From: an uncultured candidatus Porisulfidus sp.
GTDB lineage: Bacteria; Pseudomonadota; Gammaproteobacteria; Poriferisulfidales; Oxydemutatoraceae
DNA: 64,000 nt
Direction: 5' to 3'
Assembly: GCA_965215125.1 (NCBI GenBank)
Contig: OZ244052.1
Location: 1,504,001 to 1,568,000 of the forward strand
The notes below the pieces were generated by a model. The model did not search any database and had not been told where the DNA came from. It saw only the letters and a list, made by a program, of their open reading frames with translations. Both the position numbers and the translations under genes were made by a program. Positions 1,012 to 54,540 of this stretch are shown one piece after another (positions within the stretch are counted from its first letter, which is position 1; the number at the start of each line of letters is the position of its first letter).

Positions 1012-2001
1012 ATGCAAAGATTAAAATTAATTCGTTCGTTGTGCTTGCTATCGGCTTTGATGGTGGGAGTGGTTCCGAGTATTGCAACTGCGCAAGAGTC
1101 ACCTATGCAGGAAAGAATAAATGAAGTTCTACCTACTCAGGATCCTTATTGCACTGCTGATGGAGATGGTCAATATCCGAACTTGCCCTCTACAGGTGCC
1201 ATAAATACGGATGCGTTTGCCGATGATTCAGCGTTATGTAGTGCTGTCACAATATCGGGAACTTCAGTCCCTGCAGGAGTCGTTGACTGGGTATTGGTTG
1301 AATTGAGGGTGGCAGTGCGCTCGGGAGGTACTCCTAATTCGGACGACGCGAATATTTTTACAGAGATTGGAAGCACTGGCGTGACAAGATCTACAGTCAT
1401 AGCTCGAAAACCGGCCTTCTTATTAAATAATGGTAGAATTGTAGATGCAGTAGCATATGCGGACCTAGGTAGTCATACCTCAGACACTCCGGATTCCTGT
1501 AATTTAAGTGAAGATGTGGTTGCTAACTTAGAGGAGAGTAACAACTGTCCTGATCTCATATTTGATGCAGACAATATAGCCGATCGTCTTGACACCAATT
1601 CAGATGGTACCGATGACGATTTATATTTGGTGATCCGCCATAGAAACCATATAGATATTATGTCTAGTACCCCACTAACCGAAAGCTCAGGGGTATACAC
1701 TTATGATTTTATTAGCAACGTAGCTAATGCTAAAGATAATGAAGGGGCAGCTGGAATAAAGGCTAATGCTGGGCCAGGAAATAATAGAGTGGCAATGTTT
1801 TCTGGTGATTCTGATTATAACAATGATATTGATATAGGTGATTATAATAATGCCATAGCGTTGCCGAATGTAGACCGAGGTGATGCAGCTAACCTAGTCT
1901 ATAGGCGTGCAGACAACGACTATAATGGTCAAGTTGATATAAGTGATTACAATGAGTCTATAAGAATCAATCGTGCCCTTTCAGCCGTACTACCAAGATA
2001 A
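1012..2001 (+). CDS. Secreted 'adaptor' protein 1: DWVLVELR/RHRNH beta-domain plus C-terminal dockerin-like double Ca-binding loop
   Basis: Signal peptide (..SIATA|Q). Motifs LPTQDPY, VVDWVLVELR, ARKPAFLL, LYLVIRHRNH, YTYDF. Ends GDSDYNNDIDIGD...ADNDYNGQVDISD. AGGAG RBS upstream. Paralog of 40854-41684. Confidence 0.8.
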   Translation: MQRLKLIRSLCLLSALMVGVVPSIATAQESPMQERINEVLPTQDPYCTADGDGQYPNLPSTGAINTDAFADDSALCSAVTISGTSVPAGVVDWVLVELRVAVRSGGTPNSDDANIFTEIGSTGVTRSTVIARKPAFLLNNGRIVDAVAYADLGSHTSDTPDSCNLSEDVVANLEESNNCPDLIFDADNIADRLDTNSDGTDDDLYLVIRHRNHIDIMSSTPLTESSGVYTYDFISNVANAKDNEGAAGIKANAGPGNNRVAMFSGDSDYNNDIDIGDYNNAIALPNVDRGDAANLVYRRADNDYNGQVDISDYNESIRINRALSAVLPR

Positions 2002-16015: not shown

Positions 16016-16612
16016 ATGTTTACTTCCAAACTTTATAACTATTATTATGTAGCGTTGCTTACTCTTGCTGCGATTATCTGCACATACTATCAAGAACTCT
16101 TCATATATCAAAAGCAGTTACTGGAACAAGGGCAATTATGGCGTTTATTTAGCGGCCATTTTGTACATCTAAACGATAAACATCTCATATTAAACTTGAT
16201 TGCTTGGATTATTATTTTCTTTTTAGGTCTCAATTATCTATCACTTTTAAGATGGGTTGTTTTATTGTTTATATTGACATTATCAATCTCGGTGAGCTTA
16301 TATCACTTTGCTTCTGATATCTTATATTACGGTGGATTATCGGGTGTTTTACATGGTTACTTTGCTTATATCCTAGTGGAATGGATCAAAAACAAACAGA
16401 AGTTTGCGTGGATTATTTTGTTATTATTGATCGCAAAAACACTAATAGAAAACTTCTCGGATATAGGGTCTTCTACAGCCGAATATCTAGATCTCCGAGT
16501 TGTCACGGAAGTACATCTAATAGGCGTTTTTACTGGTATTCTCGTTGCACTATTAACTTTACATCGGGAGAGGAAATTCAAGCAATCAAGCAATTTCGGC
16601 ATTAATATTTGA
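16016..16612 (+). CDS. rrtA: Rhombosortase (rhomboid-family GlyGly-CTERM processing protease)
   Basis: GQLWRLFSGHFVHLN..HL..N, YGGLSGVLHG (catalytic Ser), K..IE, H.IG. Adjacent to a GlyGly-CTERM substrate. Confidence 0.85.
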   Translation: MFTSKLYNYYYVALLTLAAIICTYYQELFIYQKQLLEQGQLWRLFSGHFVHLNDKHLILNLIAWIIIFFLGLNYLSLLRWVVLLFILTLSISVSLYHFASDILYYGGLSGVLHGYFAYILVEWIKNKQKFAWIILLLLIAKTLIENFSDIGSSTAEYLDLRVVTEVHLIGVFTGILVALLTLHRERKFKQSSNFGINI

Positions 16613-31276: not shown

Positions 31277-31341
31277 GTGGCGTGTCCGGCAACTACAGTA
31301 AATATACGCGGAGCAGTTGTATAATCCTAAGGTACAGAATC

Positions 31342-40853: not shown

Positions 40854-41684
40854 ATGAATTTGGGGCGAAACGAAGCTATGATGATTAGAAAGATAATAGT
40901 AAATGCTTTGTTCTTTTTAGTGCTAATGATGCCGACGATTAGTACTGCACAAACTGAACAACCACTAAGAAGTAATAGCAATGTTGATAATACCGATCCT
41001 TATTGCGGTACTAATGGTTATCTTGAAGAAGCACTTGGTGTCAGTAGGCAATGTAGTATTACGAACACAAGCATACCTAATAACGTCTCTGATTGGGTAT
41101 TGCTTGAGTTGCGTGCAGTGGATAGCAGCAAGGGGGTAGAGGGTGCAACAACAGAAACGGTGGTCGCACGCAAGCCTGCTTTATTGCTACAGAACGGCTA
41201 TGTTGTAGACGCGGACAAATATGGTGGGACCGATACGTGCACCAACTTTAATGTAGCCGACCCGGACAACTGCCCTCTTGTAGAGTTTGATTTTCCCGAC
41301 AATACGCAGATATTGGGTAAGGATTTATATGTGGTCGTACGTCATATAAATCATCTAGACATTATTTCTAACGAAAAAATGTCAACAGCAACTACAAGCC
41401 TAGGGACAAGTTATACCTATGATTTCACAGTCCTTACGGCATCAGAAACAAACGCTGCCAGAGGAGGAAATCTTGGTTTGAAGATAGAAAACGGAACGGC
41501 GGCAATGTATGTGGGTGATGTAAATCACGACGCGAATATAAATGCTGCCGATTATCTACAAATATATAATGATGCGGGAACAACGTCTAAGAGGTCTGAC
41601 ATTGATTTCAACGGTACAGTGAATGCCGACGATGCCTCTTCCCGATTGGGTCAGAATTTAGGTCGAACAACGCAGCTGCCCTAG
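40854..41684 (+). CDS. Secreted 'adaptor' protein 2: DWVLLELR/RHINH beta-domain plus dockerin-like double Ca-loop
   Basis: Signal peptide (ISTA|Q; true start may be 40878). Motifs TDPY, DWVLLELR, ARKPALLLQNG, YVVVRHINH, YTYDF, GDVNHDANINAAD...SDIDFNGTVNADD. Confidence 0.8.
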   Translation: MNLGRNEAMMIRKIIVNALFFLVLMMPTISTAQTEQPLRSNSNVDNTDPYCGTNGYLEEALGVSRQCSITNTSIPNNVSDWVLLELRAVDSSKGVEGATTETVVARKPALLLQNGYVVDADKYGGTDTCTNFNVADPDNCPLVEFDFPDNTQILGKDLYVVVRHINHLDIISNEKMSTATTSLGTSYTYDFTVLTASETNAARGGNLGLKIENGTAAMYVGDVNHDANINAADYLQIYNDAGTTSKRSDIDFNGTVNADDASSRLGQNLGRTTQLP

Positions 41685-41688
41685 GATA

Positions 41689-44600
41689 ATGATTGCCAAA
41701 CAGAGAAACCCGATAAGAAAGATTTTTACGATATTGCTGTTGCTATTAGTCGGCAGTGCATTTGCACAAACCTCATTTGTCCAAAGTCGGTTTTCAGGTA
41801 TGCCGTCGGATGAAAATGAGATAGCCGGTGAATGTAATGACTGTCAGCCAAGCGTAGACGGCGTATTGGAATATAGGATTGCTATGGAGGAACTAGAAAG
41901 CGATAGAGTTAACACCACTGCCACCTATAACGTTCAAATGAGGATAATCGGAGGCAACACAATCACTAAAGGCGCGACCAGATTGGCATTTGCGTCGGCT
42001 AGATTAACATATAACACTGATGCGTTCGGCAAAAAGGCAAAAGAAAATAACAAATGCGACTATGATGTTGTCGGTGCTTTTGCGGAGCAAGGAAAAGGAT
42101 ATAGCTATACATTCAATGATACTACCGATGATAGCTTCACCATTACCGCCTACACTCCTGCTCGGACAACCACGGCATCTAATTTAGTGCAGCTTAGTGA
42201 AACATTTCAAGATTTTGTAAAAATCTCATGTAATATCGAAAATAGCGATCAAGATGCAGGCGTTGCAATTAGTGGAACCGACATCACGGCGAACATGATA
42301 TATGTCTACAGCGATGCAAATGAAACGAATACTAACATATCTGCTAGGCGTGGCATATTCCCGCTGGTTCACAATAGCCTTCGTGGTTTTCGTTTGGACG
42401 AGAAGACCTGGGTGAGGGATTACTCAAGATATGGAGATGGGCGTGGCGTGCGTCTTGAATTTTCTAAAGGTATTGACACTCAATTAACCGAAGCTAATTT
42501 TACGCTTGATGCAACCACCGCAACCACCGATTCGGTGATAAGCAAAGTGAATCATAACTCTGGTAGCAATTATGCCGAGATTGAGTTTAGTCAGGCTATA
42601 GGAGATGACATCTTGAGGCTAGTCAGTAGTAGTCCCACGGTTAAAGATGCAGATAATGGTGAATTAGCTGATGGCAATTTTGTTGCGGCTTTGTTTTATG
42701 ACTCGGTAGCACCTAGAGTTACCGCCATTGCTCAAAACACCGATTTCAGTGGCCCGGCAAATCGTACGGAATGGATACTGACTTTCAGTAGTGCGATTAG
42801 TCCTAGCACCGTCAATAAAGATAGTTTGTGTGTAGCCGAGATGAATGGAATATGTGTGGCAGAAGGAATGACGCCGACGATACCCATTATCGGTGTAAGG
42901 ACTGATGGAGATTCGCCGACTACACTCACAGTAGTTGTAGATCAGACTGCCGGATTCGCAACAGGTGGTATGCGGTCTATAGAATTTAGGCGCAATGCCA
43001 TTCAAGGCGCAACTAACTTCAAAGTAGTTGAAGATTATCAGCCGGCATTAAGAGACGCAGTGATTCTACAACAAGATACTACCGCCCCAGAGATTACAGT
43101 GGCTAGAGTAAGGTCGGATGGCACCCCGGCCTCGGCATCGGACAATCTTATCCCGGTGGGCGACAATTATGTGATGTACTTTCAGGTGACCGCCAATGAA
43201 GATGTAGAAAGTTTAGATGACCTAGATTCTTATCAGTTGCAAGACAATACCGGGACAGTAGTTGATGATGCCGTCGGTTCAATACATAGTGGCTCAGGGT
43301 CAAACAGAAGCGTAATACTTCGGTACACCATCCTAGTTAGCAGTGCAACTAGTGTGACGTATTTCACGGTGGTTCGTAGTAATGTTGCAACAAGCCTGCA
43401 AGATGTGGCAAGCAATCAGCCGGTTGATGTTGACCGCAATCCAATAGCGAATGGAGGCATCATAACCAATGCTCCGTCGGCTCGGGCACCAAGAGATACA
43501 ACCGGACCGATAATCACTGTGGGTACGACAACTATTATGCCGACCAGTAGTGGCTTAAAATATATCGTAACATTTGAGATTAATGCCAACGAATCTGTTC
43601 CGACTATAGCGGAAGTTAATTCTTATACGGTGACACGAGAGGGCGATGGAAATGAACCGTCGGTTACTGATACGGTAGATGTGGTGGCTAATGATGCCAT
43701 GACTGCTGCAACAGTGACCTATACTGCCGCCTTCGGTTCTGACCAATACGCCGATGTGCGAGCCACAACAGGCTGGACACTAGGCTTTGTATCGGGGGCA
43801 TTATTGGATGTAGATAGGAATGCGCCAACGTTACCGGATAGTCCGTTAGCAAGTAGAGATACCACTGCGCCGCAAATCACGATAGCAGGTTCTCCGACAC
43901 TGACTTTAGATGCCACCACCGCTACTGCGAGTTTTGTGGTGGTAGCAGATAAGGCTGTAGAGACCTTGGATGAAGGGGATTCATATCAGCTATACCGATT
44001 TGAAGGTGGCCCCGGTTCTCCGGTAAGCGGTGCCACGGCGGCGATTGATCCCCGTAGTGATAACCGCAGAACGACTCTGACTTATGTTGTGGCATTGAGT
44101 GATCAAGAGGTGATAGACACGGAGAGCTTTGGTTTATACCGAGCTGAAGATAATACGAAATTGTTGGATAATTCAGGCAATTTACCTGTGCAAGGTGATG
44201 GTTCGACATTAATAGCTACAGACACGGAGATAGACTCGACCCGGCGTGCCGTCAAGGAGACCGAGGGTGCGATGATTACGGTGGCTATCGTTGATCAAGT
44301 TGATGCAGATAATGATGTTGAGGCAGAACCGAATCCTAACGACGGAAGCCAATATACCATAGGTTTCACAATTACGAACACCGAGCACAGTACTAAGCCT
44401 ATTGGCGACCTTGCTACTACAACTTCTTATACGATACTGCGCAGAGTTGGGAGTAATAACTTGAATACCACTATCACGGTGGTTAGTGGGGCCGGTAGCG
44501 AGGATAGTGCAGGTGTAGCGACACTGGAGTTTGTGGTGAGCATAGCCGATCAAGCGACTACCGAGATGACGGACGGTTTTGTGCTGGCGCGTGCCAATAA

Positions 44601-47600
44601 TGCTGACGCCTTGCTGGATCGTAGCGGCAATCCTCCCAGACTGGGTACTACCCCCATTGGTGTAGGTGCGGTAATAGACGCTTCAGTCATCGCACGCCGA
44701 GATACGACAGCACCCAATCTGACGGTATCACCGAGCACGGCTGAAACAGACGATGGTAAGGTCTATACTTTTTCATTTGAAGTGACGAGAGAAGAAGCCG
44801 TTCGTGGTTTTAGTATTACGAGTTCATATTCCTTATTAGTCGCAGAAAAGGAAGAGAATGTAATGTCCGGGTTCCAAGTGGTAAGTGGCACTAATCCTAG
44901 TGTGGAGTTTTCCGAAGATAGACCTACGACTGCGGTAGTTAAATACAGCGTAGATGTAGATGACCTGCAAAGTAATCTTAGTATTGCTTCTACTTATGGG
45001 TTCATGCTCGGTCGTGCCGGCGGTGGTTTGCGAGACTTGGCGAACAATGACCCGGTGCAGAGCGATGCAGCCGGAGACAGGACGGCTACCGAAGTCGCCG
45101 ACGGACAACCACTGCAATTAGGTCAGGTAGTAGTATTAGATAGAGTGTCGCCAAGCATTACGGTATCGGCAGACAGCATTGCACCGGTGCCTGCTACCGT
45201 TGGTCGATACACGATGTCATTTACAACAACAGCGACCGAAGCCGTAAGGAATATAGCGCAAGCAGGTTCATACCGGTTAATGCGTGTCAGAACCGATAAT
45301 ACTTGGGAGGCAGCATCAGAAACTGCTATGCAAGAACAAGTATCCGTTGGTATGAATAATGAAGTCGACGGATTAGGGACTTCGGCGACATTCACCTATA
45401 CCATCACTTTCACCGGTGAAGCTCCAACTAGGCTTGCAAACATAAGAGGGACACGAGGGTTCACGCTGGCACTGGTTAGCGGGGAAAATCAAGTAAACTT
45501 ACGGGACATTGCAACTAACCTACCGGTGAAAAGCAATGGCGATGCGATATACGATACTGACGGGACGACCTTGCTGAATGACGGGATAATAGCACCGATA
45601 TCAGGTGGTGTGATTGTCGCAAGTGCGGTCGCAGCGAGAGACACGACAGGTCCTGATTTAACGGTAGCATCTATCGGCAATGCTGTCCCGGGTGCGACCG
45701 CTGTGGCATTGAGCGGGCGTTTCACGGTAGGTTCTACGGAAGCGATACGAGATATAAATAGTACGGCTTCATATAGCTTGCTTCGTATCCCGCTAAATAG
45801 TGATGGCAGTCCTAATGATGGGGGTGCGGTGTTAGAGAGCAGTGCGACTTTCACTGTGTCAAGCGGAAGCAATTTAAGTCAATCTGTGACAATTGACTTT
45901 ACTGCCGTGCTTGATGATGTTGTCCAAGTGCGAGGCACTTATGGTTTCACATTGGCGAGTGCGATTGTTGCGGGCGGTGGATTGCGAGACATATGGGGCA
46001 ATGCGGTGGTTGCGATTTCAGCCGAGCAGAACAGGCTGACAGCCGGCAATAATGCAGTGGTGGCAATAGAGAAAGTTCCCCCACAAATCACGATAGCAGG
46101 TTCTCCGACACTGACTTTAGATGCCGACACCGCTACTGCGACCTTTGTGGTGTTGGCAAGTGAGGATGTAGAGACCTTGGATGAAGGGGATTCATATCAG
46201 CTATACCGATTTGAAGGCGGCACCGGTTCTCCGGTAAGCGGTGCCACGGCGACGATTGATCCCCGTAGTGATAACCGCAGAACGACTCTGACTTATGTTG
46301 TGACATTGACTGCTCAAGAGGTGATGGACACGGAGAGCTTTGGTTTATACCGAGCTGAAGATAATACGAAATTGTTGGATAATTCAGGCAATTTACCTGT
46401 GCAAGGTGATGGTTCGACATTAATAGCTACAGGCACGGAGATAGACTCGACCCGGCGTGCCGTCAAGGAGACCGAGGGTGCGATGATTACGGTGGCTATC
46501 GTTGATCAAGTTGATGCAGATAATGATGTTGAGGCAGACCCGAATCCTAACGACGGAAACCAATATACCATAGGTTTCACGGTCACGAATACAGACCACG
46601 GCACTCAATCTATTAGCGATCTTGCTACTACAGCTTCTTATACGATACTGCGCAGAGTTGGGAATAGTAACTTGAATACCACTATCACGGTGGTTAGTGG
46701 GACCGGTAGCGATAATGGTGCAGGTGTGGCGACACTGGAGTTTGTGGTGAGCATAGCCGATCAAGCGACTACCGAGATGACGGACGGTTTTGTGCTGGCG
46801 CGTGCTAACAATGCTGACGCCTTGCTGGATAGTAGCGGCAATCCTCCCAGACTAGGTACTACCCCCATTGGTGTAGGTGCGGTAATAGACGCTTCAGTCA
46901 TCGCACGCCGAGATACGACAGCACCCAATCTGACGGTATCACCGAGCACCGCTGAAACAGACGATGGTAAGGTCTATACTTTTTCATTTGAAGTGACGAG
47001 AGAAGAAGCCGTTCGTGGTTTTAGTATTACGAGTTCATATTCCTTATTAGTCGCAGAAAAGGAAGAGAATGTAATGTCCGGGTTCCAAGTGGTAAGTGGC
47101 ACTAATCCTAGTGTGGAGTTTTCCGAAGATAGACCTACGACTGCGGTATTTGAATACAGCGTAGATGTAGATGACCTGCAAAGTAATCTTAGTATTGCTT
47201 CTACTTATGGGTTCATGCTCGGTCGTGCCGGCGGTGGTTTGCGAGACTTGGCGAACAATGACCCGGTGCAGAGCGATGCAGCCGGAGACAGGACGGCTAC
47301 CGAAGTCGCCGACGGACAACCACTGCAATTAGGTCAGGTAGTAGTATTAGATAGAGTGTCGCCAAGCATTACGGTATCGGCAGACAGCATTGCACCGGTG
47401 CCTGCTACCGTTGGTCGATACACGATGTCATTTACAACAACAGCGACCGAAGCCGTAAGGAATATAGCGCAAGCAGGTTCATACCGGTTAATGCGTGTCA
47501 GAACCGATAATACTTGGGAGGCAGCATCATTAACTGCTTCGCAAGAACCAGTATCCGTTGGTATGAATAATGAAGTTGACGGATTAGGGACTTCGGCGAC

Positions 47601-50600
47601 ATTCACCTATACCATCACTTTCACCGGTGAAGCTCCAACTAGGCTTGCAAACATAAGAGGGACACGAGGGTTCACGCTGGCACTGGTTAGCGGGGAAAAT
47701 CAAGTAAACTTACGAGACATTGCAACTAACCTACCGGTGAAAAGCAATGGCGATGCGATATACGATACTGACGGGACGACCTTGCTGGATGACGGGATAA
47801 TAGCCCCGATATCAGGTGGTGTGATTGTCGCAAGTGCGGTCGCAGCGAGAGACACGACAGGTCCTGATTTAACGGTAGCATCTATCGGCAATGCTGTCCC
47901 GGGTGCGACCGCTGTGGCATTGAGCGGGCGTTTCACGGTAGGTTCTACGGAAGCGATACGAGATATAAATAGTACGGCTTCATATAGCTTGCTTCGTATC
48001 CCGCTAAATAGTGATGGCAGTCCTAATGATGGGGGTGCGGTGTTAGAGAGCAGTGCGACTTTCACTGTGTCAAGCGGAAGCAATTTAAGTCAATCTGTGA
48101 CAATTGACTTTACTGCCGTGCTTGATGATGTTGTCCAAGTGCGAGGCACTTATGGTTTCACATTGGCGAGTGCGATTGTTGCGGGCGGTGGATTGCGAGA
48201 CATATGGGGCAATGCGGTGGTTGCGATTTCAGCCGAGCAGAACAGGCTGACAGCCGGCAATAATGCAGTGGTGGCAATAGAGAAAGTTCCCCCACAAATC
48301 ACGATAGCAGGTTCTCCGACACTGACTTTAGATGCCGACACCGCTACTGCGACCTTTGTGGTGTTGGCAAGTGAGGATGTAGAGACCTTGGATGAAGGGG
48401 ATTCATATCAGCTATACCGATTTGAAGGCGGCACCGGTTCTCCGGTAAGCGGTGCCACGGCGACGATTGATCCCCGTAGTGATAACCGCAGAACGACTCT
48501 GACTTATGTTGTGACATTGACTGCTCAACAAGTGATAGACACGGAGAGCTTTGGTTTATACCGAGCTGAAGATAATACGAAATTGTTGGATAATTCAGGC
48601 AATTTACCTGTGCAAGGTGATGGTTCGACATTAATAGCTACAGGCACGGAGATAGACTCGACCCGGCGTGCCGTCAAGGAGACCGAGGGTGCGATGATTA
48701 CGGTGGCTATCGTTGATCAAGTTGATGCAGATAATGATGTTGAGGCAGACCCGAATCCTAACGACGGAAACCAATATACCATAGGTTTCACGGTCACGAA
48801 TACAGACCACGGCACTCAACCTATTGACGATCTTGCTACTACAGCTTCTTATACGATACTGCGCAGAGTTGGGAATAGTAACTTGAATACTACTATCACG
48901 GTGGTTAGTGGGACCGGTAGCGATAATGGTGCAGGTGTGGCGACACTGGAGTTTGTGGTGAGCATAGCCGATCAAGCGACTACCGAGATGACGGACGGTT
49001 TTGTGCTGGCGCGTGCTAACAATGCTGACGCCTTGCTGGATAGTAGCGGCAATCCCCCTAGACTGGGTACTACCCCCATTGGTGTAGGTGCGGTAATAGA
49101 CGCTTCAGTCATCGCACGCCGAGATACGACAGCACCCAATCTGACGGTATCACCGAGCACCGCTGAAACAGACGATGGTAAGGTCTATACTTTTTCATTT
49201 GAAGTGACGAGAGAAGAAGCCGTTCGTGGTTTTAGTATTACGAGTTCATATTCCTTATTAGTCGCAGAAAAGGAAGAGAATGTAATGTCCGGGTTCCAAG
49301 TGGCAGGTGGCATTAATCCTAGTGTGGAGTTTTCCGAAGATAGACCTACGACTGCGGTATTTGAATACAGCGTAGATGTAGATGACCTGCAAAGTAATCT
49401 TAGTATTGTTTCTACTTATGGGTTCATGCTTGGTCGTGCCGGCGGTGGTTTGCGAGACTTGGCGAACAATGACCCGGTGCAGAGCGATGCAGCCGGAGAC
49501 AGGACGACGACCGAAGTCGCCGACGGACAACCATTGCAATTAGGTCAGGTAGTATTATTAGATAGAGTGTCGCCAAGCATTACGGTATCGGCAGACAGCA
49601 TTGCACCGGTGCCTGCTACCGTTGGTCGATACACGATGTCATTTACAACAACAGCGACCGAAGCCGTAAGGAATATAGCGCAAGCAGGTTCATACCGGTT
49701 AATGCGTGTCAGAACCGATAATACTTGGGAGGCAGCATCATTAACTGCTTCGCAAGAACCAGTATCCGTTGGTATGAATAATGAAGTTGACGGATTAGGG
49801 ACTTCGGCGACATTCACCTATACCATCACTTTCACCGGTGAAGCTCCAACTAGGCTTGCAAACATAAGAGGGACACGAGGGTTCACGCTGGCACTGGTTA
49901 GCGGGGAAAATCAAGTAAACTTACGAGACATTGCAACTAACCTACCGGTGAAAAGCAATGGCGATGCGATATACGATACTGACGGGACGACCTTGCTGGA
50001 TGACGGGATAATAGCACCGATATCAGGTGGTGTGATTGTCGCAAGTGCGGTCGCAGCGAGAGACACGACAGGTCCTGATTTAACGGTAGCATCTATCGGC
50101 AATGCTGTCCCGGGTGCGACCGCTGTGGCATTGAGCGGGCGTTTCACGGTAGGTTCTACGGAAGCGATACGAGATATAAATAGTACGGCTTCATATAGCT
50201 TGCTTCGTATCCCGCTAAATAGTGATGGCAGTCCTAATGATGGGGGTGCGGTGTTAGAGAGCAGTGCGACTTTCACTGTGTCAAGCGGAAGCAATTTAAG
50301 TCAATCTGTGACAATTGACTTTACTGCCGTGCTTGATGATGTTGTCCAAGTGCGAGGCACTTATGGTTTCACATTGGCGAGTGCGATTGTTGCGGGCGGT
50401 GGATTGCGAGACATATGGGGCAATGCGGTGGTTGCGATTTCAGCCGAGCAGAACAGACTGACAGCCGGCAATAATGCAGTGGTGGCAATAGAGAAAGTTC
50501 CACCACAAATCACGATAGCAGGTTCTCCGACACTGACTTTAGATGCCACCACCGCTACTGCGACCTTTGTGGTGTTGGCAAGTGAGGATGTAGAGACCTT

Positions 50601-53600
50601 GGATGAAGGGGATTCATATCAGCTATACCGATTTGAAGGTGGTAGTGGTTCTCCGGTAAGCGGTGCCACGGCGACGATTGATCCCCGTAGTGATAACCGC
50701 AGAACGACTCTGACTTATGTTGTGACATTGACTGCTCAACAAGTGATAGACACGGAGAGCTTTGGTTTATACCGAGCTGAAGATAATACGAAATTGTTGG
50801 ATAATTCAGGCAATTTACCTGTGCAAGGTGATGGTTCGACATTAATAGCTACAGGCACGGAGATAGACTCGACCCGGCGTGCCGTCAAGGAGACCGAGGG
50901 TGCGATGATTACGGTGGCTATCGTTGATCAAGTTGATGCAGATAATGATGTTGAGGCAGAACCGAATCCTAACGATGGAAACCAATATACCATAGGTTTC
51001 ACGGTCACGAATACAGACCACGGCACTCAACCTATTGACGATCTTGCTACTACAGCTTCTTATACGATACTGCGCAGAGTTGGGAATAGTAACTTGAATA
51101 CTACTATCACGGTGGTTAGTGGGACCGGTAGCGAGGATAGTGCAGGTGTGGCAACACTGGAGTTTGTGGTGAGCATAGCCGATCAAGCGACTACCGAGAT
51201 GACGGACGGTTTTGTGCTGGCGCGTGCTAACAATGCTGACGCCTTGCTGGATAGTAGCGGCAATCCCCCTAGACTGGGTACTACCCCCATTGGTGTAGGC
51301 GCGGTAATAGACGCTTCAGTCATCGCACGCCGAGATACGACAGCACCCAATCTGACGGTATCACCGAGCACCGCTGAAACAGACGATGGTAAGGTCTATA
51401 CTTTTTCATTTGAAGTGACGAGAGAAGAAGCCGTTCGTGGTTTTAGTATTACGAGTTCATATTCCTTATTAGTCGCAGAAAAGGAAGAGAATGTAATGTC
51501 CGGGTTCCAAGTGGCAGGTGGCATTAATCCTAGTGTGGAGTTTTCCGAAGATAGACCTACGACTGCGGTATTTGAATACAGCGTAGATGTAGATGACCTG
51601 CAAAGTAATCTTAGTATTGTTTCTACTTATGGGTTCATGCTCGGTCGTGCCGGCGGTGGTTTGCGAGACTTGGCGAACAATGACCCGGTGCAGAGCGATG
51701 CAGCCGGAGACAGGACGACGACCGAAGTCGCCGACGGACAACCATTGCAATTAGGTCAGGTAGTATTATTAGATAGAGTGTCGCCAAGCATTACGGTATC
51801 GGCAGACAGCATTGCACCGGTGCCTGCTACCGTTGGTCGATACACGATGTCATTTACAACAACAGCGACCGAAGCCGTAAGGAATATAGCGCAAGCAGGT
51901 TCATACCGGTTGATGCGTGTAAAAACCGATAATACTTGGGAGGCAGCATCAGAAACTGCTATGCAAGAACAAGTATCCGTTGGTATGAATAATGAAGTTG
52001 ACGGATTAGGGACTTCGGCGACATTCACCTATACCATCACTTTCACCGGTGAAGCTACAACTAGGCTTGCGAACATAAGAGACACACGAGGGTTCACGCT
52101 GGCACTGGTTAGCGGAGAAAATCAAGTAAACTTACGGGACATTGCAACTAACCTGCCGGTGAAAAGCAATGGTGACAATATATACGATGCTGATGGGACG
52201 ACCTTGCTGGATGACGGGATAATAGCCCCGATATCAGGTGGTGTGATTGTCGCAAGTGCGGTCGCAGCGAGAGACACGACAGGTCCTGATTTAACGGTAG
52301 CATCTATCGGCAATGCTGTCCCGGGTGCGACCGCTGTGGCATTGAGCGGGCGTTTCACGGTAGGTTCTACGGAAGCGATACGAGATATAAATAGTACGGC
52401 TTCATATAGCTTGCTTCGTATCCCGCTAAATAGTGATGGCAGTCCTAATGATGGGGGTGCGGTGTTAGAGAGCAGTGCGACTTTCACTGTGTCAAGCGGA
52501 ACCAATTTAAGTCAATCTGTGACAATTGACTTTACTGCCGTGCTTGATGATGTTGTCCAAGTGCGAGGCACTTATGGTTTCACATTGGCGAGTGCGATTG
52601 TTGCGGGCGGTGGATTGCGAGACATATGGGGCAATGCGGTGGTTGCGATTTCAGCCGAGCAGAACAGGCTGACAGCCGGCAATAATGCAGTGGTGGCAAT
52701 AGAGAAAGTTCCACCACAAATTAATGTGGTTGCCGACGGTGTAGCAGTTCCGGTAGCTGAGACTAACGGCACGGAATATACCGTTAGGTTTAATGTTGAT
52801 GTTCAAAACGCCGAAGAAGTTAAAGGACTAGGCGATACGAGTTCTTACAATGTAATCCGTATTGGAGATTCGGGGAATACCACAGCCACTGCAGTAAGTG
52901 GCAACTCCAATGCCGATAATACAACCGCAACCTTGGTTTATGAAGTGGCAGTAGCTTCTCCGGTAGGCATAACAGGTTTCACTTTAGCGGGTGGCAGCGA
53001 CGTAGAGGCATTGAGAGACAATTCGGGCAATTTAGCTGTTCAAGGTAGCAGTACTACTACCAAAATAGCTACCGGTGTGCGCATAGATGACGATGGGACG
53101 GCATTAGCGCAAAGAGATACGATGCCCCCGGCAATTACGGTGGTAGCGGGTGCTGATGATGCCGTTCTGCAAGCACAAGCAGAAGCAGGCAATACATACC
53201 GGATGATGTTCACGGTCACGGTTGCAGATGATGATAATGTGCCGAGCCTGAACACAACATCTTCTTACCAATTAGTGCGTATATTCAAGGATGGCAGGGT
53301 TCCCGAGTTAGTTCGTGGTGCTACGGTTGAGGCAGCCGACAATGTATTCACATACACGGCAATGCTGACGACAGACATTGAGGATACGGAAGGGTTTACA
53401 CTGGCGCGTTCTAGCGACGAGACCAGCTTATTGGATGCATCGGGCAATATGCCGGTTAAGAATGATGGAACCACCATGATAGCTATCGGGGATGTGATCG
53501 CTCCGATAGACGACGACGGACAAGTTGTGCGAAGTGCAATAGCACGAACGCCACGAAGTGACGACGATACCTTGATAGGCTTGGTGTTGAGAAACTTGAT

Positions 53601-54540
53601 AGCCTCTGCATTGACAGATATAGAACTTGATCCCGACTTTACCAAAGACCAAATAACTTATACGGCAAGTGTGATATTTAGTGTAAGCAGTGTGGAAGTG
53701 ACACCAACGGCGAATAGTGCTTATGCCACTATCATGGTTAACGGCGAGGAGTTGACTGATAGTACGAGCAATGTGGTATTAAACAATCCAGCCGAAATGG
53801 TAGAAACGGAAGTCGCAGTTAAAGTGATTGCTGAAGATGACATTACATCCCAAACTTATACTATAGCGATTATGCGGGCAGCAACGGAGAGCAGCGATGC
53901 AAGACTCAGAAGCTTATCATTAGACAATATCCCGTTTACCTTTAATCCCTCAACGAATACTTATAGTATAACGGTTAATCATGGGGTGGAAAAGACAACG
54001 GTGACGGCAATGGTATTTCATCCGGGAGCAAGGGTCACAAGGCTTACCTTAGACGGCACCTCGCAAAATGATCCCGCTATTGATTTGAAAGTGGGTTCCA
54101 ATGTAATTGCGATTAGAGTTATTGCCGAAGATACTTCACCGAGCACCTATACCATAACCATCACGCGTCTGGAAAACAACGATACAGGACTCAGAAGCTT
54201 ATCATTAGACAATATCCCGTTTACCTTTAATCCCTCAACGAGGACTTATGAGATAATGGTCGGAGAGGAGATAACCGAGACGACGGTGACGGCAGTGGTA
54301 TCTTTCAATGGAGCAATGATTACAGATCTTACGGTAAACGATAATGCACAGACTTTCACTGTCGGCACGAATATAGAAGAGAGTATCGCATTAAATACGG
54401 ATAATACTGTAATAGAGATCACCGTGACCGCAGCAAATAGTACTACAGACACTTATACCCTAACTATCACGCGTGCACAACCGCCGGTTTCCGACATTCG
54501 TCTCCGTATCAAGGTATTTCTTGAAGGCCCCTTGCAATAG
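41689..54540 (+). CDS. Giant (4283 aa) secreted Ig-like repeat protein 2 with 3 cadherin-like beta-sandwich domains and C-terminal KVFLEGP peptide
   Basis: Signal peptide (SAFA|Q). Collinear with the giant 1 N-terminal half. 4 x 737-aa repeat. Three L.SL.L..F.P....Y..TV...TYTITITR modules (about 53557-54480). No TM anchor; ends IRLRIKVFLEGPLQ*. Confidence 0.9.
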   Translation: MIAKQRNPIRKIFTILLLLLVGSAFAQTSFVQSRFSGMPSDENEIAGECNDCQPSVDGVLEYRIAMEELESDRVNTTATYNVQMRIIGGNTITKGATRLAFASARLTYNTDAFGKKAKENNKCDYDVVGAFAEQGKGYSYTFNDTTDDSFTITAYTPARTTTASNLVQLSETFQDFVKISCNIENSDQDAGVAISGTDITANMIYVYSDANETNTNISARRGIFPLVHNSLRGFRLDEKTWVRDYSRYGDGRGVRLEFSKGIDTQLTEANFTLDATTATTDSVISKVNHNSGSNYAEIEFSQAIGDDILRLVSSSPTVKDADNGELADGNFVAALFYDSVAPRVTAIAQNTDFSGPANRTEWILTFSSAISPSTVNKDSLCVAEMNGICVAEGMTPTIPIIGVRTDGDSPTTLTVVVDQTAGFATGGMRSIEFRRNAIQGATNFKVVEDYQPALRDAVILQQDTTAPEITVARVRSDGTPASASDNLIPVGDNYVMYFQVTANEDVESLDDLDSYQLQDNTGTVVDDAVGSIHSGSGSNRSVILRYTILVSSATSVTYFTVVRSNVATSLQDVASNQPVDVDRNPIANGGIITNAPSARAPRDTTGPIITVGTTTIMPTSSGLKYIVTFEINANESVPTIAEVNSYTVTREGDGNEPSVTDTVDVVANDAMTAATVTYTAAFGSDQYADVRATTGWTLGFVSGALLDVDRNAPTLPDSPLASRDTTAPQITIAGSPTLTLDATTATASFVVVADKAVETLDEGDSYQLYRFEGGPGSPVSGATAAIDPRSDNRRTTLTYVVALSDQEVIDTESFGLYRAEDNTKLLDNSGNLPVQGDGSTLIATDTEIDSTRRAVKETEGAMITVAIVDQVDADNDVEAEPNPNDGSQYTIGFTITNTEHSTKPIGDLATTTSYTILRRVGSNNLNTTITVVSGAGSEDSAGVATLEFVVSIADQATTEMTDGFVLARANNADALLDRSGNPPRLGTTPIGVGAVIDASVIARRDTTAPNLTVSPSTAETDDGKVYTFSFEVTREEAVRGFSITSSYSLLVAEKEENVMSGFQVVSGTNPSVEFSEDRPTTAVVKYSVDVDDLQSNLSIASTYGFMLGRAGGGLRDLANNDPVQSDAAGDRTATEVADGQPLQLGQVVVLDRVSPSITVSADSIAPVPATVGRYTMSFTTTATEAVRNIAQAGSYRLMRVRTDNTWEAASETAMQEQVSVGMNNEVDGLGTSATFTYTITFTGEAPTRLANIRGTRGFTLALVSGENQVNLRDIATNLPVKSNGDAIYDTDGTTLLNDGIIAPISGGVIVASAVAARDTTGPDLTVASIGNAVPGATAVALSGRFTVGSTEAIRDINSTASYSLLRIPLNSDGSPNDGGAVLESSATFTVSSGSNLSQSVTIDFTAVLDDVVQVRGTYGFTLASAIVAGGGLRDIWGNAVVAISAEQNRLTAGNNAVVAIEKVPPQITIAGSPTLTLDADTATATFVVLASEDVETLDEGDSYQLYRFEGGTGSPVSGATATIDPRSDNRRTTLTYVVTLTAQEVMDTESFGLYRAEDNTKLLDNSGNLPVQGDGSTLIATGTEIDSTRRAVKETEGAMITVAIVDQVDADNDVEADPNPNDGNQYTIGFTVTNTDHGTQSISDLATTASYTILRRVGNSNLNTTITVVSGTGSDNGAGVATLEFVVSIADQATTEMTDGFVLARANNADALLDSSGNPPRLGTTPIGVGAVIDASVIARRDTTAPNLTVSPSTAETDDGKVYTFSFEVTREEAVRGFSITSSYSLLVAEKEENVMSGFQVVSGTNPSVEFSEDRPTTAVFEYSVDVDDLQSNLSIASTYGFMLGRAGGGLRDLANNDPVQSDAAGDRTATEVADGQPLQLGQVVVLDRVSPSITVSADSIAPVPATVGRYTMSFTTTATEAVRNIAQAGSYRLMRVRTDNTWEAASLTASQEPVSVGMNNEVDGLGTSATFTYTITFTGEAPTRLANIRGTRGFTLALVSGENQVNLRDIATNLPVKSNGDAIYDTDGTTLLDDGIIAPISGGVIVASAVAARDTTGPDLTVASIGNAVPGATAVALSGRFTVGSTEAIRDINSTASYSLLRIPLNSDGSPNDGGAVLESSATFTVSSGSNLSQSVTIDFTAVLDDVVQVRGTYGFTLASAIVAGGGLRDIWGNAVVAISAEQNRLTAGNNAVVAIEKVPPQITIAGSPTLTLDADTATATFVVLASEDVETLDEGDSYQLYRFEGGTGSPVSGATATIDPRSDNRRTTLTYVVTLTAQQVIDTESFGLYRAEDNTKLLDNSGNLPVQGDGSTLIATGTEIDSTRRAVKETEGAMITVAIVDQVDADNDVEADPNPNDGNQYTIGFTVTNTDHGTQPIDDLATTASYTILRRVGNSNLNTTITVVSGTGSDNGAGVATLEFVVSIADQATTEMTDGFVLARANNADALLDSSGNPPRLGTTPIGVGAVIDASVIARRDTTAPNLTVSPSTAETDDGKVYTFSFEVTREEAVRGFSITSSYSLLVAEKEENVMSGFQVAGGINPSVEFSEDRPTTAVFEYSVDVDDLQSNLSIVSTYGFMLGRAGGGLRDLANNDPVQSDAAGDRTTTEVADGQPLQLGQVVLLDRVSPSITVSADSIAPVPATVGRYTMSFTTTATEAVRNIAQAGSYRLMRVRTDNTWEAASLTASQEPVSVGMNNEVDGLGTSATFTYTITFTGEAPTRLANIRGTRGFTLALVSGENQVNLRDIATNLPVKSNGDAIYDTDGTTLLDDGIIAPISGGVIVASAVAARDTTGPDLTVASIGNAVPGATAVALSGRFTVGSTEAIRDINSTASYSLLRIPLNSDGSPNDGGAVLESSATFTVSSGSNLSQSVTIDFTAVLDDVVQVRGTYGFTLASAIVAGGGLRDIWGNAVVAISAEQNRLTAGNNAVVAIEKVPPQITIAGSPTLTLDATTATATFVVLASEDVETLDEGDSYQLYRFEGGSGSPVSGATATIDPRSDNRRTTLTYVVTLTAQQVIDTESFGLYRAEDNTKLLDNSGNLPVQGDGSTLIATGTEIDSTRRAVKETEGAMITVAIVDQVDADNDVEAEPNPNDGNQYTIGFTVTNTDHGTQPIDDLATTASYTILRRVGNSNLNTTITVVSGTGSEDSAGVATLEFVVSIADQATTEMTDGFVLARANNADALLDSSGNPPRLGTTPIGVGAVIDASVIARRDTTAPNLTVSPSTAETDDGKVYTFSFEVTREEAVRGFSITSSYSLLVAEKEENVMSGFQVAGGINPSVEFSEDRPTTAVFEYSVDVDDLQSNLSIVSTYGFMLGRAGGGLRDLANNDPVQSDAAGDRTTTEVADGQPLQLGQVVLLDRVSPSITVSADSIAPVPATVGRYTMSFTTTATEAVRNIAQAGSYRLMRVKTDNTWEAASETAMQEQVSVGMNNEVDGLGTSATFTYTITFTGEATTRLANIRDTRGFTLALVSGENQVNLRDIATNLPVKSNGDNIYDADGTTLLDDGIIAPISGGVIVASAVAARDTTGPDLTVASIGNAVPGATAVALSGRFTVGSTEAIRDINSTASYSLLRIPLNSDGSPNDGGAVLESSATFTVSSGTNLSQSVTIDFTAVLDDVVQVRGTYGFTLASAIVAGGGLRDIWGNAVVAISAEQNRLTAGNNAVVAIEKVPPQINVVADGVAVPVAETNGTEYTVRFNVDVQNAEEVKGLGDTSSYNVIRIGDSGNTTATAVSGNSNADNTTATLVYEVAVASPVGITGFTLAGGSDVEALRDNSGNLAVQGSSTTTKIATGVRIDDDGTALAQRDTMPPAITVVAGADDAVLQAQAEAGNTYRMMFTVTVADDDNVPSLNTTSSYQLVRIFKDGRVPELVRGATVEAADNVFTYTAMLTTDIEDTEGFTLARSSDETSLLDASGNMPVKNDGTTMIAIGDVIAPIDDDGQVVRSAIARTPRSDDDTLIGLVLRNLIASALTDIELDPDFTKDQITYTASVIFSVSSVEVTPTANSAYATIMVNGEELTDSTSNVVLNNPAEMVETEVAVKVIAEDDITSQTYTIAIMRAATESSDARLRSLSLDNIPFTFNPSTNTYSITVNHGVEKTTVTAMVFHPGARVTRLTLDGTSQNDPAIDLKVGSNVIAIRVIAEDTSPSTYTITITRLENNDTGLRSLSLDNIPFTFNPSTRTYEIMVGEEITETTVTAVVSFNGAMITDLTVNDNAQTFTVGTNIEESIALNTDNTVIEITVTAANSTTDTYTLTITRAQPPVSDIRLRIKVFLEGPLQ
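43873..52716 (+). repeat. Four tandem near-identical 2211-bp (737-aa) coding repeats
   Basis: caaatcacgatagcaggttctccg recurs at 43873, 46084, 48295 and 50506. Antisense ORFs repeat with the same period. Confidence 0.97.

What the first reader, a model, noticed from the sequence alone, without database searches (positions are those of the whole stretch)
54496..54540. Giant protein 2 ends in the beta-strand that both adaptor proteins lack: a candidate split-domain / donor-strand coupling system
Seen: giant 2 has no TM or other anchor and terminates with IRLRIKVFLEGPLQ*, an alternating hydrophobic strand. The two small secreted proteins (1012-2001, 40854-41684) start, right after the signal peptide, with QESPMQERINEVLPTQDPY / QTEQPLRSNSNVDNTDPY, followed by DWVL.ELR, ARK.A.LL, Y..(I/V)RH.NH, YDF and a dockerin-like end. 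Recalled, not verified: many Bacteroidota/Ignavibacteria secreted proteins carry this as one contiguous C-terminal domain, KVFLEGPY...M...LP..(Q/E)PY...DWVLVELR...RHRNHL...GD.N.DG. Here it appears cut precisely after KVFLEGP, with the first strand on the cargo and the remainder as a free-standing protein. Inference: the tail acts as a tag that completes the adaptor fold, analogous to pilus donor-strand complementation, and captures cargo on the cell surface.
Basis: partly seen in the sequence, partly recalled or inferred. Interest (0 to 1): 0.92.

Follow-up and report, generated by a model that had tools for sequence, protein, structure and literature searches.

The report
Strand tag completing a split domain
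About two dozen giant secreted proteins of this sponge-symbiont-like bacterium end in a short beta-strand that is the missing first strand of a docking domain made separately as three small secreted proteins, which looks like a natural tag-and-catcher system for coupling giant surface proteins.

Summary
Giant 2 (41689-54540) ends in ...IRLRIKVFLEGPLQ*. About 24 large ORFs in the same 2.2-Mb genome end in this tail or a close variant. The tail is homologous to the first beta-strand of a roughly 225-aa C-terminal domain. In 70 of 70 readable loci from Bacteroidales, Chlorobiota, Ignavibacteria and others, that domain is one piece beginning (K/T)(V/A)(F/Y)LEGP(F/Y). A sister-genus genome carries it whole on 25 giants. 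Here and in related genera, the rest of the domain is made as free secreted proteins, each with its own signal peptide and no first strand. The genome has three of them. The whole domain models at pLDDT 97.9, and its nearest solved folds are cellulosomal X-module-dockerin dyads, a weak match. A complex model places the tail in the adaptor at score 0.83, against 0.07 for the best control. No binding experiment exists, and the receptor of the dockerin-like end is unknown. No Pfam or NCBIfam model covers the beta-sandwich. I read it as trans strand complementation, a new variant of a known principle.

The parts
54496..54540 (+). C-terminal tag IRLRIKVFLEGPLQ plus stop. It corresponds to beta-strand 1 of the split X-module/dockerin-like domain.
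   Evidence: sequence. (the same strand opens the unsplit domain in 70 of 70 loci). (strand E4-9 in the model of the unsplit domain). (tail residues 17-32 form the modelled interface).
41689..54540 (+). Giant 2, 4283 aa. It has a signal-like N-terminus, four tandem copies of a 737-aa unit, three cadherin-like beta-sandwich stretches near the end, then the tag. No membrane anchor.
   Evidence: (PF12733, 3 stretches, best at aa 4073-4160). (no hydrophobic segment other than 12-31). (seed recurs at aa 728, 1465, 2202, 2939).
40854..41684 (+). Adaptor B (P0002, 276 aa). It has a signal peptide, a beta-sandwich lacking strand 1, four invariant Cys and a dockerin-like end (aa 221-262). Its stop lies 4 nt before the giant 2 start.
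   Evidence: (PDB dockerins, E about 1e-3). (complex model). (model of the adaptor alone: pLDDT 71, low at 25-39 and 205-218).
1012..2001 (+). Adaptor A (P0001, 329 aa), a paralog with about 31% tblastn identity to P0002 (35% in alignment A1). It lies directly upstream of giant 1.
2013..15635 (+). Giant 1, 4540 aa. It shares the N-terminal domain of giant 2 but ends in a GlyGly-CTERM-like signal instead of the tag.
   Evidence: (N-terminal alignment A4). (hydrophobic segment 4508-4534).
15516..15635 (+). GlyGly-CTERM-like tail of giant 1: a Gly run, a hydrophobic helix, then RRRK.
   Evidence: sequence and hydropathy. The tripartite definition comes from the abstract of PMC6219818 in the listing.
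16016..16612 (+). Rhombosortase gene, directly after giant 1.
   Evidence: TIGR03902, 135.6 bits against a cut-off of 84, at G000:1520094-1520552 = window 16094-16552. (Pfam Rhomboid).

Best explanation
The last roughly 10-15 residues of giant 2, and of about 23 other large secreted proteins in this genome, are beta-strand 1 of a C-terminal domain of about 225 aa. That domain is a beta-sandwich followed by a dockerin-like calcium-binding module. In this lineage it has been split into two polypeptides. Everything after strand 1 is made as three free-standing, Sec-exported proteins, the adaptors.

After export, the tag inserts as a strand into the incomplete sandwich of an adaptor. This is strand complementation in trans, so many cargo proteins share a few adaptors. 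The adaptor's dockerin-like end then couples the complex to a receptor that has not been identified. The receptor is probably at the cell surface. One candidate is the rhombosortase-anchored giant encoded next to an adaptor.

Shown: the homology of the tag to strand 1, the exact cut point, the genome-wide tag, and the phyletic and syntenic association. Modelled only: the binding. Inferred: the surface anchoring and the receptor.
For: (a) Cut point. Unsplit homologs read ..L(K/T)(V/A)(F/Y)LEGP(F/Y)..M.T.L..LP..QPY..DWVLVELR... The tags end ..KVFLEGPLQ*. Mature adaptors begin at or just before the M.T.L/LP.QDPY segment. The G006 adaptor, for example, starts AQ|RSMNTGLSDFIPADDPYC.

(b) Strand 1 belongs to the fold. 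The unsplit domain models at pLDDT 97.9 and pTM 0.94, with strand E4-9 over the tag-equivalent residues.

(c) Scale. 16 large ORFs end in (K/R)(V/L)FLEG plus 3 residues (7 in one). 8 more carry variants (IRVFPEGLLR, VFLESPLQ, VLLEGLLPVGTE). Together they total about 128,500 aa, about 17% of the genome. There are only 3 adaptors.

(d) Phyletic pattern. The adaptor profile hits 16 of 18 other genomes of the family and 0 of 22 from other families of the order. The 10 genomes with at least 2 strict tag matches all have adaptor-profile matches in open frames of adaptor size, 265-353 aa, or 439 aa for the partial match in draft G018. Variant tags were then found in G010 and G013 (RIRVFLEGAVIP*, KVFLEGPYEYR*), G009 (VFLQGALQ*) and G012 (KVYLGGAVR*); G010 and G012 carry strandless free adaptors, while the G013 and G009 adaptor-profile matches sit in 294-412-aa open frames whose N-termini were not read. 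G005 has the domain only fused to giants: 25 hits inside ORFs of 687 to 17,496 aa, with no tags. G011 has neither adaptor nor strict tag.

(e) Natural fusion. A 650-aa G012 protein reads ..NVLLGGAVR-GSVP-STPYMTTDL..DPYC, which is a tag-like end joined to an adaptor-like start. It is the sister (SH-aLRT 99) of the neighbouring strandless adaptor.

(f) Synteny. Adaptor genes abut giants that share one N-terminal domain, in G000 (three loci; in one the adaptor starts about 25 nt after a tagged giant's stop), G007 and G010.

(g) Complex model. P0002 residues 33-276 plus the last 32 aa of giant 2 scored 0.83, 0.79 and 0.84, median 0.83. The best of 3 controls scored 0.07. In the tool's calibration the mark was reached by 58 of 80 solved complexes and 2 of 110 mismatched pairs; these counts hold only roughly, because my own alignments were used. 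The runs agree in at least 86% of contacts, and the partner's pLDDT is at least 59. The interface is tail residues 17-32 against adaptor strands 183-192 and 215-220, plus core residues 109-117 and 160-164.
Against: No experiment exists, and no RNA run is on record.

The complex model may simply recall the unsplit domain family, so it is not independent of the homology argument. Nearby solved folds are only remote, so recall of a solved complex is less likely.

The adaptor alone still models as a largely folded sandwich (pLDDT 71), so an open groove is not demonstrated. Its lower confidence may only reflect the shallower alignment, 27 rows against 66.

Only adaptor B was modelled with a tag; A and C were not tested.

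No Pfam cohesin is present in the genome at E <= 1. The N-terminal domain of the adaptor-linked giants shows no cohesin similarity. The anchoring half of the model therefore has no identified partner.

Adaptor A sits beside a giant that has no tag.

The tree is a quick search with moderate support (SH-aLRT 84-90). It cannot say whether the split happened once.
Confidence: 0.6

Rival explanations
1. Complementation is real but transient. The adaptors would be periplasmic chaperones or pilots that cap the tag, keep giants export-competent and hand them to the type II secretion system. This resembles PapD-type chaperones, which donate a strand and are then displaced. They would not be permanent surface couplers.
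For: Both partners carry Sec signals. A GspD secretin gene scoring 451 bits, above its cut-off, lies about 5 kb upstream of the window. The few-to-many ratio suits a recycling factor. No surface receptor was found.
Against: In the unsplit forms the same domain is a permanent C-terminal part of the protein, including 25 giants of G005. That fits a structural or anchoring role better than a chaperone role. The conserved dockerin-like module has no obvious role in a chaperone.
Confidence: 0.15
2. The tag is an independent C-terminal sorting or secretion signal read by some other machine. It would be a vestige of the lost domain that kept or gained this role. The strandless adaptors would fold and act on their own.
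For: Many bacterial surface proteins carry short C-terminal sorting signals in many-to-one pairings (abstract of PMC3237569, listing). The adaptor alone is still modelled as a sandwich.
Against: The tag has no hydrophobic helix or basic cluster, and the last 512 aa of giant 2 hit no NCBIfam sorting-domain model. The cut point matches the adaptor start exactly. Every genome in which tags were found also has adaptor-profile matches, shown to be free strandless adaptors where their N-termini were read (G000, G006, G007, G010, G012). The G012 fusion joins a tag-like end to an adaptor-like start.
Confidence: 0.12
3. The alternating hydrophobic tail mediates giant-to-giant association, for example edge-strand pairing or amyloid-like stacking. 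This would build an extracellular matrix without adaptors.
For: The tail has an alternating R/hydrophobic pattern typical of a beta-strand. It sits on proteins that together make up about 17% of the genome.
Against: This does not explain why the tail is homologous to strand 1 of a specific domain, nor why the remainder of that domain is kept as separate genes next to giants.
Confidence: 0.05

Closest known systems
Donor-strand complementation/exchange in chaperone-usher pili and type V pili (established knowledge, recalled)
   Same: An incomplete beta-sandwich is completed by a strand supplied by another polypeptide.
   Different: The donor here is the extreme C-terminus of many unrelated giant cargo proteins. 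The acceptor is a soluble adaptor with a dockerin-like module. No usher, chaperone or polymerisation is evident. The missing strand is the first one, not the last.
Type II X-module-dockerin (XDoc) dyads of cellulosomal scaffoldins (PDB 4u3s_B, 4wi0_B, 2b59_B, 5k39_B)
   Same: These are the best structural matches to the unsplit domain: Foldseek E 1.4e-3, prob 1.00, TM 0.59 on target length. The architecture is the same, a beta-sandwich followed by a calcium-binding dockerin at the C-terminus of a large scaffold.
   Different: The sandwich here is larger: the aligned dyad is 156 aa, against about 225 aa. Sequence identity is 9-14%. No cohesin was found in the genome. XDoc is not known to be split between two proteins (recalled).
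GlyGly-CTERM/rhombosortase and other short C-terminal sorting signals (PMC3237569, PMC6219818; abstracts seen in the listing)
   Same: It is a short C-terminal signature shared by many surface proteins and paired with few partner genes. A genuine GlyGly-CTERM giant and a rhombosortase sit beside adaptor A.
   Different: The tag has no membrane helix or basic cluster. Its proposed partner is a binding protein that it completes, not a protease that removes it.
SpyTag/SpyCatcher-type engineered split domains (recalled)
   Same: A beta-sandwich domain is divided into a short strand tag and a larger catcher that reconstitute in trans.
   Different: Those are man-made and lock covalently through an isopeptide bond. 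This system is natural and presumably non-covalent. No isopeptide-forming triad was looked for.

Membership tests
Unsplit KVFLEGP...DWVLVELR...RHRNHL...dockerin C-terminal domain (unnamed; no Pfam or NCBIfam model) | Conserved core motifs: DWVL.ELR, ..A.LL..G, (V/I).HRNH, YDF, GD.N.DG. | tested here: met
   Adaptor alignment A1 against unsplit alignment A3. tblastn-confirmed homology of 514 stretches to the adaptor profile.
Unsplit KVFLEGP...DWVLVELR...RHRNHL...dockerin C-terminal domain (unnamed; no Pfam or NCBIfam model) | Strand 1, (K/T)(V/A)(F/Y)LEGP(F/Y), lies 44-60 aa upstream of DWVL on the same polypeptide. | tested here: not met
   The strand is absent from all 27 adaptors in A1, which have a signal peptide instead. 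It is present at the C-terminus of the giants. This is the split itself.
Type II X-module-dockerin dyad | Dockerin with duplicated calcium-binding loop-helix segments. | tested here: inconclusive
   P0002 hits PF00404 at 23.2 bits against a cut-off of 22.9; P0001 has no hit. The A1 profile hits PDB dockerins at E 1e-3 to 0.04. Only 4 of 66 unsplit members hit PF00404.
Type II X-module-dockerin dyad | Ig-like X module packed against the dockerin. | tested here: inconclusive
   Foldseek best hits are XDoc chains, but at E 1.4e-3 to 0.14, with TM 0.43-0.45 on the query and 0.56-0.61 on the target.
Type II X-module-dockerin dyad | A cognate cohesin partner is encoded in the genome. | tested here: not met
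   PF00963 has no match at E <= 1 in the 99%-complete genome. The N-terminal domain of the adaptor-linked giants does not match the cohesin-bearing protein P0033 (hhalign probability 0.1).
Chaperone-usher donor-strand complementation | The acceptor fold lacks one strand, and another chain supplies it. | tested here: inconclusive
   Homology shows the missing strand. The donation is modelled only: score 0.83 against 0.07 for the best control.
Chaperone-usher donor-strand complementation | A dedicated periplasmic chaperone and an outer-membrane usher. | not tested
   No search for PapD/PapC-type genes was run.
Protease-processed C-terminal sorting signals (GlyGly-CTERM, PEP-CTERM, LPXTG type) | Tripartite signal: motif, hydrophobic helix, basic cluster. 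| tested here: not met
   Giant 2 has no hydrophobic segment after residue 31, and the tail ends PLQ. Giant 1 does meet the definition.
T9SS C-terminal domains | Match to the NCBIfam T9SS sorting-domain models. That these models are in the library is recalled. | tested here: not met
   No NCBIfam family hits the last 512 aa of giant 2 or the adaptors, apart from chance-level hits. None hits the 66 unsplit domains either.
Outer-membrane beta-barrel C-terminal beta-signal | Terminal aromatic residue (recalled definition). | tested here: not met
   Tails end in Q, R, P or E.

The most novel reading that the evidence does not exclude
This would be a previously unrecognised kind of protein-sorting system: a natural, non-covalent tag-and-catcher. 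A genetically minimal C-terminal strand of about 10 residues licenses any secreted protein, up to 15,000 aa, to be plugged into a shared adaptor. The adaptor's dockerin would then mount it on a rhombosortase-anchored giant stalk. The result would be a cellulosome-like 'adhesome' on a sponge symbiont, with genus-specific tag/adaptor variants acting as orthogonal pairs.
Probability: 0.3. Interest if true: 0.9.

Novelty: new variant of a known kind. Interest (0 to 1): 0.85.

Why it matters
If the tag really completes the adaptor fold, this is a natural split-domain coupling system used at very large scale. About 24 proteins, some 17% of a 2.2-Mb genome, would depend on three small adaptors.

It would add a binding-based class of C-terminal signal to the protease-based classes (LPXTG, PEP-CTERM, GlyGly-CTERM).

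It would give a function to a widespread, unannotated C-terminal domain of Bacteroidota, Chlorobiota, Ignavibacteria and Calditrichia proteins.

It would explain how anchorless giant proteins of sponge-symbiont-like Gammaproteobacteria could be held or organised.

It would also supply natural, possibly orthogonal, peptide-tag/catcher pairs for protein engineering.

Tried and rejected
Lost-domain remnant. No frame downstream of giant 2 continues the domain; rpsO and pnp follow. Rejected.

Readthrough into the adaptor. At G000 position 119,9xx the adaptor starts about 25 nt after a tagged giant's stop, but it has its own signal peptide, and giant 2 is followed by rpsO. Rejected.

Cohesin receptor.
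- Pfam cohesin is absent from the genome.
- The N-terminal domain shared by the adaptor-linked giants (A4) gives hhalign probability 0.1 against the cohesin protein P0033 and nothing in the PDB.
- The ESM Atlas gave only scores of 0.80-0.83, below the tool's 0.9 lead threshold. One of those clusters has cohesin on 13% of its members.
- No support was obtained.

Strict DNA pattern as a phyletic marker. It gave false negatives for genera g2, g5 and g6, and a looser pattern was at control level. A tail-profile search followed by fetching the hits revealed variant tags with 4 or more residues after the Gly, or with YLGG/FLQG. G008, G015, G011 and G016 were not re-examined for variants.

Other searches.
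- Tandem Repeats Finder found nothing in giant 2 because the unit is 2211 nt and the tool's longest period is 500. A seed search showed 4 copies.
- Expression: no RNA holder listed.
- Literature: searches for 'Porisulfidus', 'donor strand complementation' + 'dockerin', and split domain / strand complementation / C-terminal tag / adhesin found no description of this system. Subscription journals are not covered, and supplements were not opened.
- Papers used: passages of PMC9123188 and PMC12988363, and listing abstracts only for PMC3237569 and PMC6219818.

Full report
OBSERVATION

Window 54496-54540 (+) encodes IRLRIKVFLEGPLQ followed by TAG. It closes a 4283-aa ORF, 41689-54540. Giant 2 has one hydrophobic segment, residues 12-31, which looks like a signal peptide, and no other. 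Pfam sees three cadherin-like beta-sandwich stretches just before the tail. rpsO and pnp lie downstream, and no frame there continues a domain.

Both start with signal-like sequences and then ..QDPYC / ..TDPYC. Both carry DWVL.ELR, ARKPA.LL, (V/I)RH.NH and YDF. P0002 just passes Pfam Dockerin_1, at 23.2 bits against a cut-off of 22.9. P0001 has no Pfam hit. A profile of the family hits solved dockerins at E 1e-3 to 0.04. The best hit is the X-module-dockerin chain 2b59_B.

THE TAIL IS A GENOME-WIDE TAG

The window lies in a single 2.22-Mb contig. A six-frame scan for (K/R/V)(V/I/L)F(L/F)(E/Q)G in open frames of at least 80 aa gave 18 hits. 17 of them lie at the extreme C-terminus. In 16 the Gly is followed by exactly three residues and a stop, and in one by seven.

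A fuller list has two groups:
- 16 large ORFs of 1,493-15,111 aa end in (K/R)(V/L)FLEG plus 3 residues, or 7 in one case.
- 8 more, of 2,410-6,243 aa, carry variants: five tandem giants of about 5,900 aa ending IRVFPEG(L/F)LR, one IRLFPEGLLNP, one IRVLLEGLLPVGTE and one VFLESPLQ.

Measured from the first ATG, these 24 ORFs sum to about 128,500 aa, about 17% of the genome. Of 38 ORFs of at least 1,200 aa, only two end in a Gly-rich/hydrophobic/basic anchor instead. One of these is giant 1.

At the DNA level, the pattern for V-F-L-E-G-x-x-x-stop occurs 18 times in the genome, against 0 for the reversed control:
- 13 sites end large ORFs.
- One ends a 269-aa frame.
- Four end short frames of 27-72 aa that look like gene fragments.
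- The 18 sites use all four Val codons and five Leu codons, so selection acts on the peptide, not on the DNA.

In 299 other genomes of the same class the pattern occurs 0-2 times. One genome has 5 copies in an internal repeat, mostly ending in TGG.

THE TAIL IS STRAND 1 OF A DOMAIN THAT IS WHOLE ELSEWHERE

The adaptor family is small. A search among proteins of similar length gave 29 proteins at E <= 0.001. The only three distant hits all carry the adaptor-like region inside a longer protein, preceded by ..VKAKAFLEGAY....NAKVILEGPW.. and ..ANIKVFLEGPF.. (P0032, P0033, P0034).

The best 80 loci were kept.
- 8 of the 80 come from records titled 'uncultured candidatus Porisulfidus sp.'. All 8 have a signal-like N-terminus and no strand.
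- The other 72 come from Bacteroidales, Chlorobiota, Ignavibacteriae, Calditrichia, KSB1, one Chromatiales MAG and others.
- In 70 of these 72 my script found the DWVL motif; L081 and L085 were dropped.
- 67 of the 70 matched a strand regular expression 44-60 aa upstream of DWVL. The remaining 3 show it by eye (TVNLEGPF twice, TVYLQGVY).

In most of these loci the domain ends the protein. No Pfam or NCBIfam model covers the sandwich. Among 66 unsplit domains, the only recurring Pfam hit is Dockerin_1, on 4 members.

With a 66-row alignment the unsplit domain models at mean pLDDT 97.9 and pTM 0.94. A strand at residues 4-9 lies over the tag-equivalent residues.

Foldseek against the PDB puts cellulosomal type II X-module-dockerin chains first: 4u3s_B at E 1.4e-3, prob 1.00, TM 0.43 on the query and 0.59 on the target, followed by 4wi0_B, 5k39_B, 2b59_B and 3kcp_A. 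No hit reaches E <= 0.001, so this is a resemblance and not a membership.

WITHIN THE FAMILY: FUSED, SPLIT AND FUSED AGAIN

Among 40 relatives, the adaptor profile hits 16 of 18 genomes of the same family and 0 of 22 genomes from other families of the order.

In G005, of another genus, all 25 hits lie inside open frames of 687 to 17,496 aa. I fetched five sites. My script read four giant C-termini, and all four carry the whole domain, with strands such as VTVQARAYLQGAY. The fifth locus gave no motif. G005 has no strict tag, and the looser pattern is at control level there.

The 10 genomes with at least 2 strict tag matches are G000-G004, G006, G007, G014, G017 and G018, with 2 to 40 matches each. 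Their adaptor-profile matches all lie in open frames of 265-353 aa, apart from a partial match in a 439-aa frame of the draft genome G018; free, strandless adaptors were confirmed by reading the sequences in G000, G006 and G007.

The strict pattern missed four other genomes with adaptor-profile matches. A profile of 19 tails found candidates there. Fetching them showed giants ending as follows:
- G010 and G013: RIRVFLEGAVIP*, RVFLEGAVIPSSAP*, KVFLEGPYEYR*.
- G009: LRVRVFLQGALQ*.
- G012: IRLRAKVYLGGAVR*.

G011 has neither adaptor nor strict tag. G008, G015, G011 and G016 were not examined for variant tags.

In G012, a 650-aa protein next to a strandless adaptor reads ..LVEINVLLGGAVR-GSVP-STPYMTTDLAEIKRLPLTDPYC. 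This is a tag-like end joined to an adaptor-like start. The neighbouring adaptor begins AQAQVTASTPSMTTELAKQDRLPADNPYC.

In a quick maximum-likelihood tree of 38 rows (SH-aLRT support only):
- The 18 strandless forms, together with this G012 fusion and its strandless neighbour, form one clade of 20 rows (support 90).
- The G012 pair are sisters (99).
- The G005 fused domains form a separate clade (100).

Support for the deeper branches is moderate (84-90), and one row has a long branch. The number and direction of fission events therefore remain open.

SYNTENY

G000 has three adaptors.
- Adaptor A precedes giant 1.
- Adaptor B precedes giant 2.
- Adaptor C starts about 25 nt after the stop of a tagged 3,364-aa giant.

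These giants share an N-terminal domain (alignment A4).

Giant 1 ends in a Gly run, a hydrophobic helix and RRRK. It is followed directly by a rhombosortase gene: TIGR03902 at 135.6 bits against a cut-off of 84, at window 16094-16552, with Pfam Rhomboid.

The arrangement of adaptor(s) followed by a GlyGly-CTERM-like giant recurs in G007 and G010. A GspD secretin gene lies about 5 kb upstream of the window.

According to abstracts seen in the listing (PMC3237569, PMC6219818), GlyGly-CTERM is a tripartite C-terminal signal processed by rhombosortase. The surface retention of such proteins in Vibrio is recalled from that literature and was not read here.

COMPLEX MODEL

The model used adaptor B residues 33-276 (27-row alignment) and the last 32 residues of giant 2 (19-row alignment of this genome's tails).
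- It scored 0.83, 0.79 and 0.84, median 0.83.
- The best of three controls scored 0.07.
- In the tool's calibration the mark was reached by 58 of 80 solved complexes and 2 of 110 mismatched pairs. These counts hold only roughly here, because my own alignments were used.
- The runs agree in at least 86% of contacts, and the partner's pLDDT is at least 59.

The interface uses tail residues 17-32. These touch adaptor strands 183-192 (..YTYDFT) and 215-220 (..AAMYVG), and core positions 109-117, 142-147 and 160-164. They also touch residues 37-41, just after the signal peptide.

This is the model's own confidence, not a measurement. No close solved complex exists, since the nearest folds are remote. 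The model may still have learned the unsplit domain from sequence, so a pass shows that the two halves are compatible with the ancestral fold, not that they bind.

The adaptor modelled alone has mean pLDDT 71, with low stretches at 25-39 and 205-218. The second stretch borders the modelled tag site. The shallower alignment could equally explain the lower confidence.

READING

The tag is strand 1 of a split sandwich-plus-dockerin domain. I rate that part as very likely.

I commit to trans strand complementation that couples about 24 giants to three adaptors, followed by docking through the dockerin-like end. My confidence in this is 0.6.

The main rival keeps the binding but makes it a transient chaperone or pilot step towards type II secretion (0.15). 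Two further rivals are an independent sorting signal read by another machine (0.12) and tail-to-tail self-association (0.05).

The weakest link is the receptor. No Pfam cohesin is present in the genome, and the shared N-terminal domain of the giants shows no cohesin signal.

COMPARISON AND NOVELTY

The system works like donor-strand complementation and looks like an XDoc dyad. It fails defining tests for XDoc membership, because no cohesin is present and the fold and sequence scores are only marginal. It also fails the tests for protease-type sorting signals, T9SS C-terminal domains and outer-membrane beta-signals (see the membership table).

My literature searches found no description of this system.

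The organism's nearest named relatives are 'Candidatus Porisulfidus' MAGs. One abstract calls this genus a known sponge symbiont (PMC12988363). Another paper uses it as an outgroup to SUP05 (PMC9123188, passage).

Earlier notes and a full-library profile search therefore could not be consulted.

Noticed in passing
window 15516-15635 and 16016-16612: Giant 1 ends in a GlyGly-CTERM-like signal and is followed directly by a rhombosortase gene (TIGR03902, 135.6 bits). The adaptor-giant-rhombosortase order partly recurs in G007 and G010, as adaptor(s) plus a GlyGly-type giant.
   Followed up: partly
window 41689-54540: Giant 2 contains four near-identical tandem copies of a 737-aa (2211-nt) unit. 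A seed recurs at aa 728, 1465, 2202 and 2939. Tandem Repeats Finder missed it because its longest period is 500.
   Followed up: partly
G000:C1:350114-439624 (outside the window): Five tandem giants of about 5,760-5,970 aa all end in the variant tail IRVFPEG(L/F)LR. This may be a separate tag class, perhaps matched to a different adaptor.
   Followed up: no
G000:C1 near 1293473, 1404069, 1829832 and 2081873: Four short open frames (27-72 aa) end in a perfect tag. They look like 3' fragments of giants, left by rearrangement or frameshift.
   Followed up: partly
L124 (G006:C3:513300-514400, minus strand): A tagged gene's 3' end plus its downstream spacer is repeated four times in tandem at 156-nt spacing. 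Each copy ends ..LRLRLRVFLEGPLR*.
   Followed up: partly
L009:2514-4466 (G012): A 650-aa protein joins a giant-type N-terminal domain, a tag-like strand (..NVLLGGAVR) and an adaptor-like remainder in one chain. It sits next to a strandless adaptor paralog and serves as a natural linked control for the split.
   Followed up: partly
window 31282-33707: A DNA methylase (N6_N4_Mtase) sits next to a TdeIII-type restriction endonuclease fragment, which matches only profile positions 99-242 of 242.
   Followed up: no
G000:C1:1497497-1499245 (about 5 kb upstream of the window): A type II secretion secretin GspD gene scores 451 bits, above its cut-off. A second GspD-like frame at 181981-183129 contains an in-frame TGA.
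   Followed up: no
A1 alignment (adaptors): Four Cys are invariant in all 27 adaptors (positions 51, 67, 129 and 140 of P0002), which suggests two disulfides. The unsplit FCB-group domains lack the DPYC cysteine and read QPY(N/S) instead.
   Followed up: no
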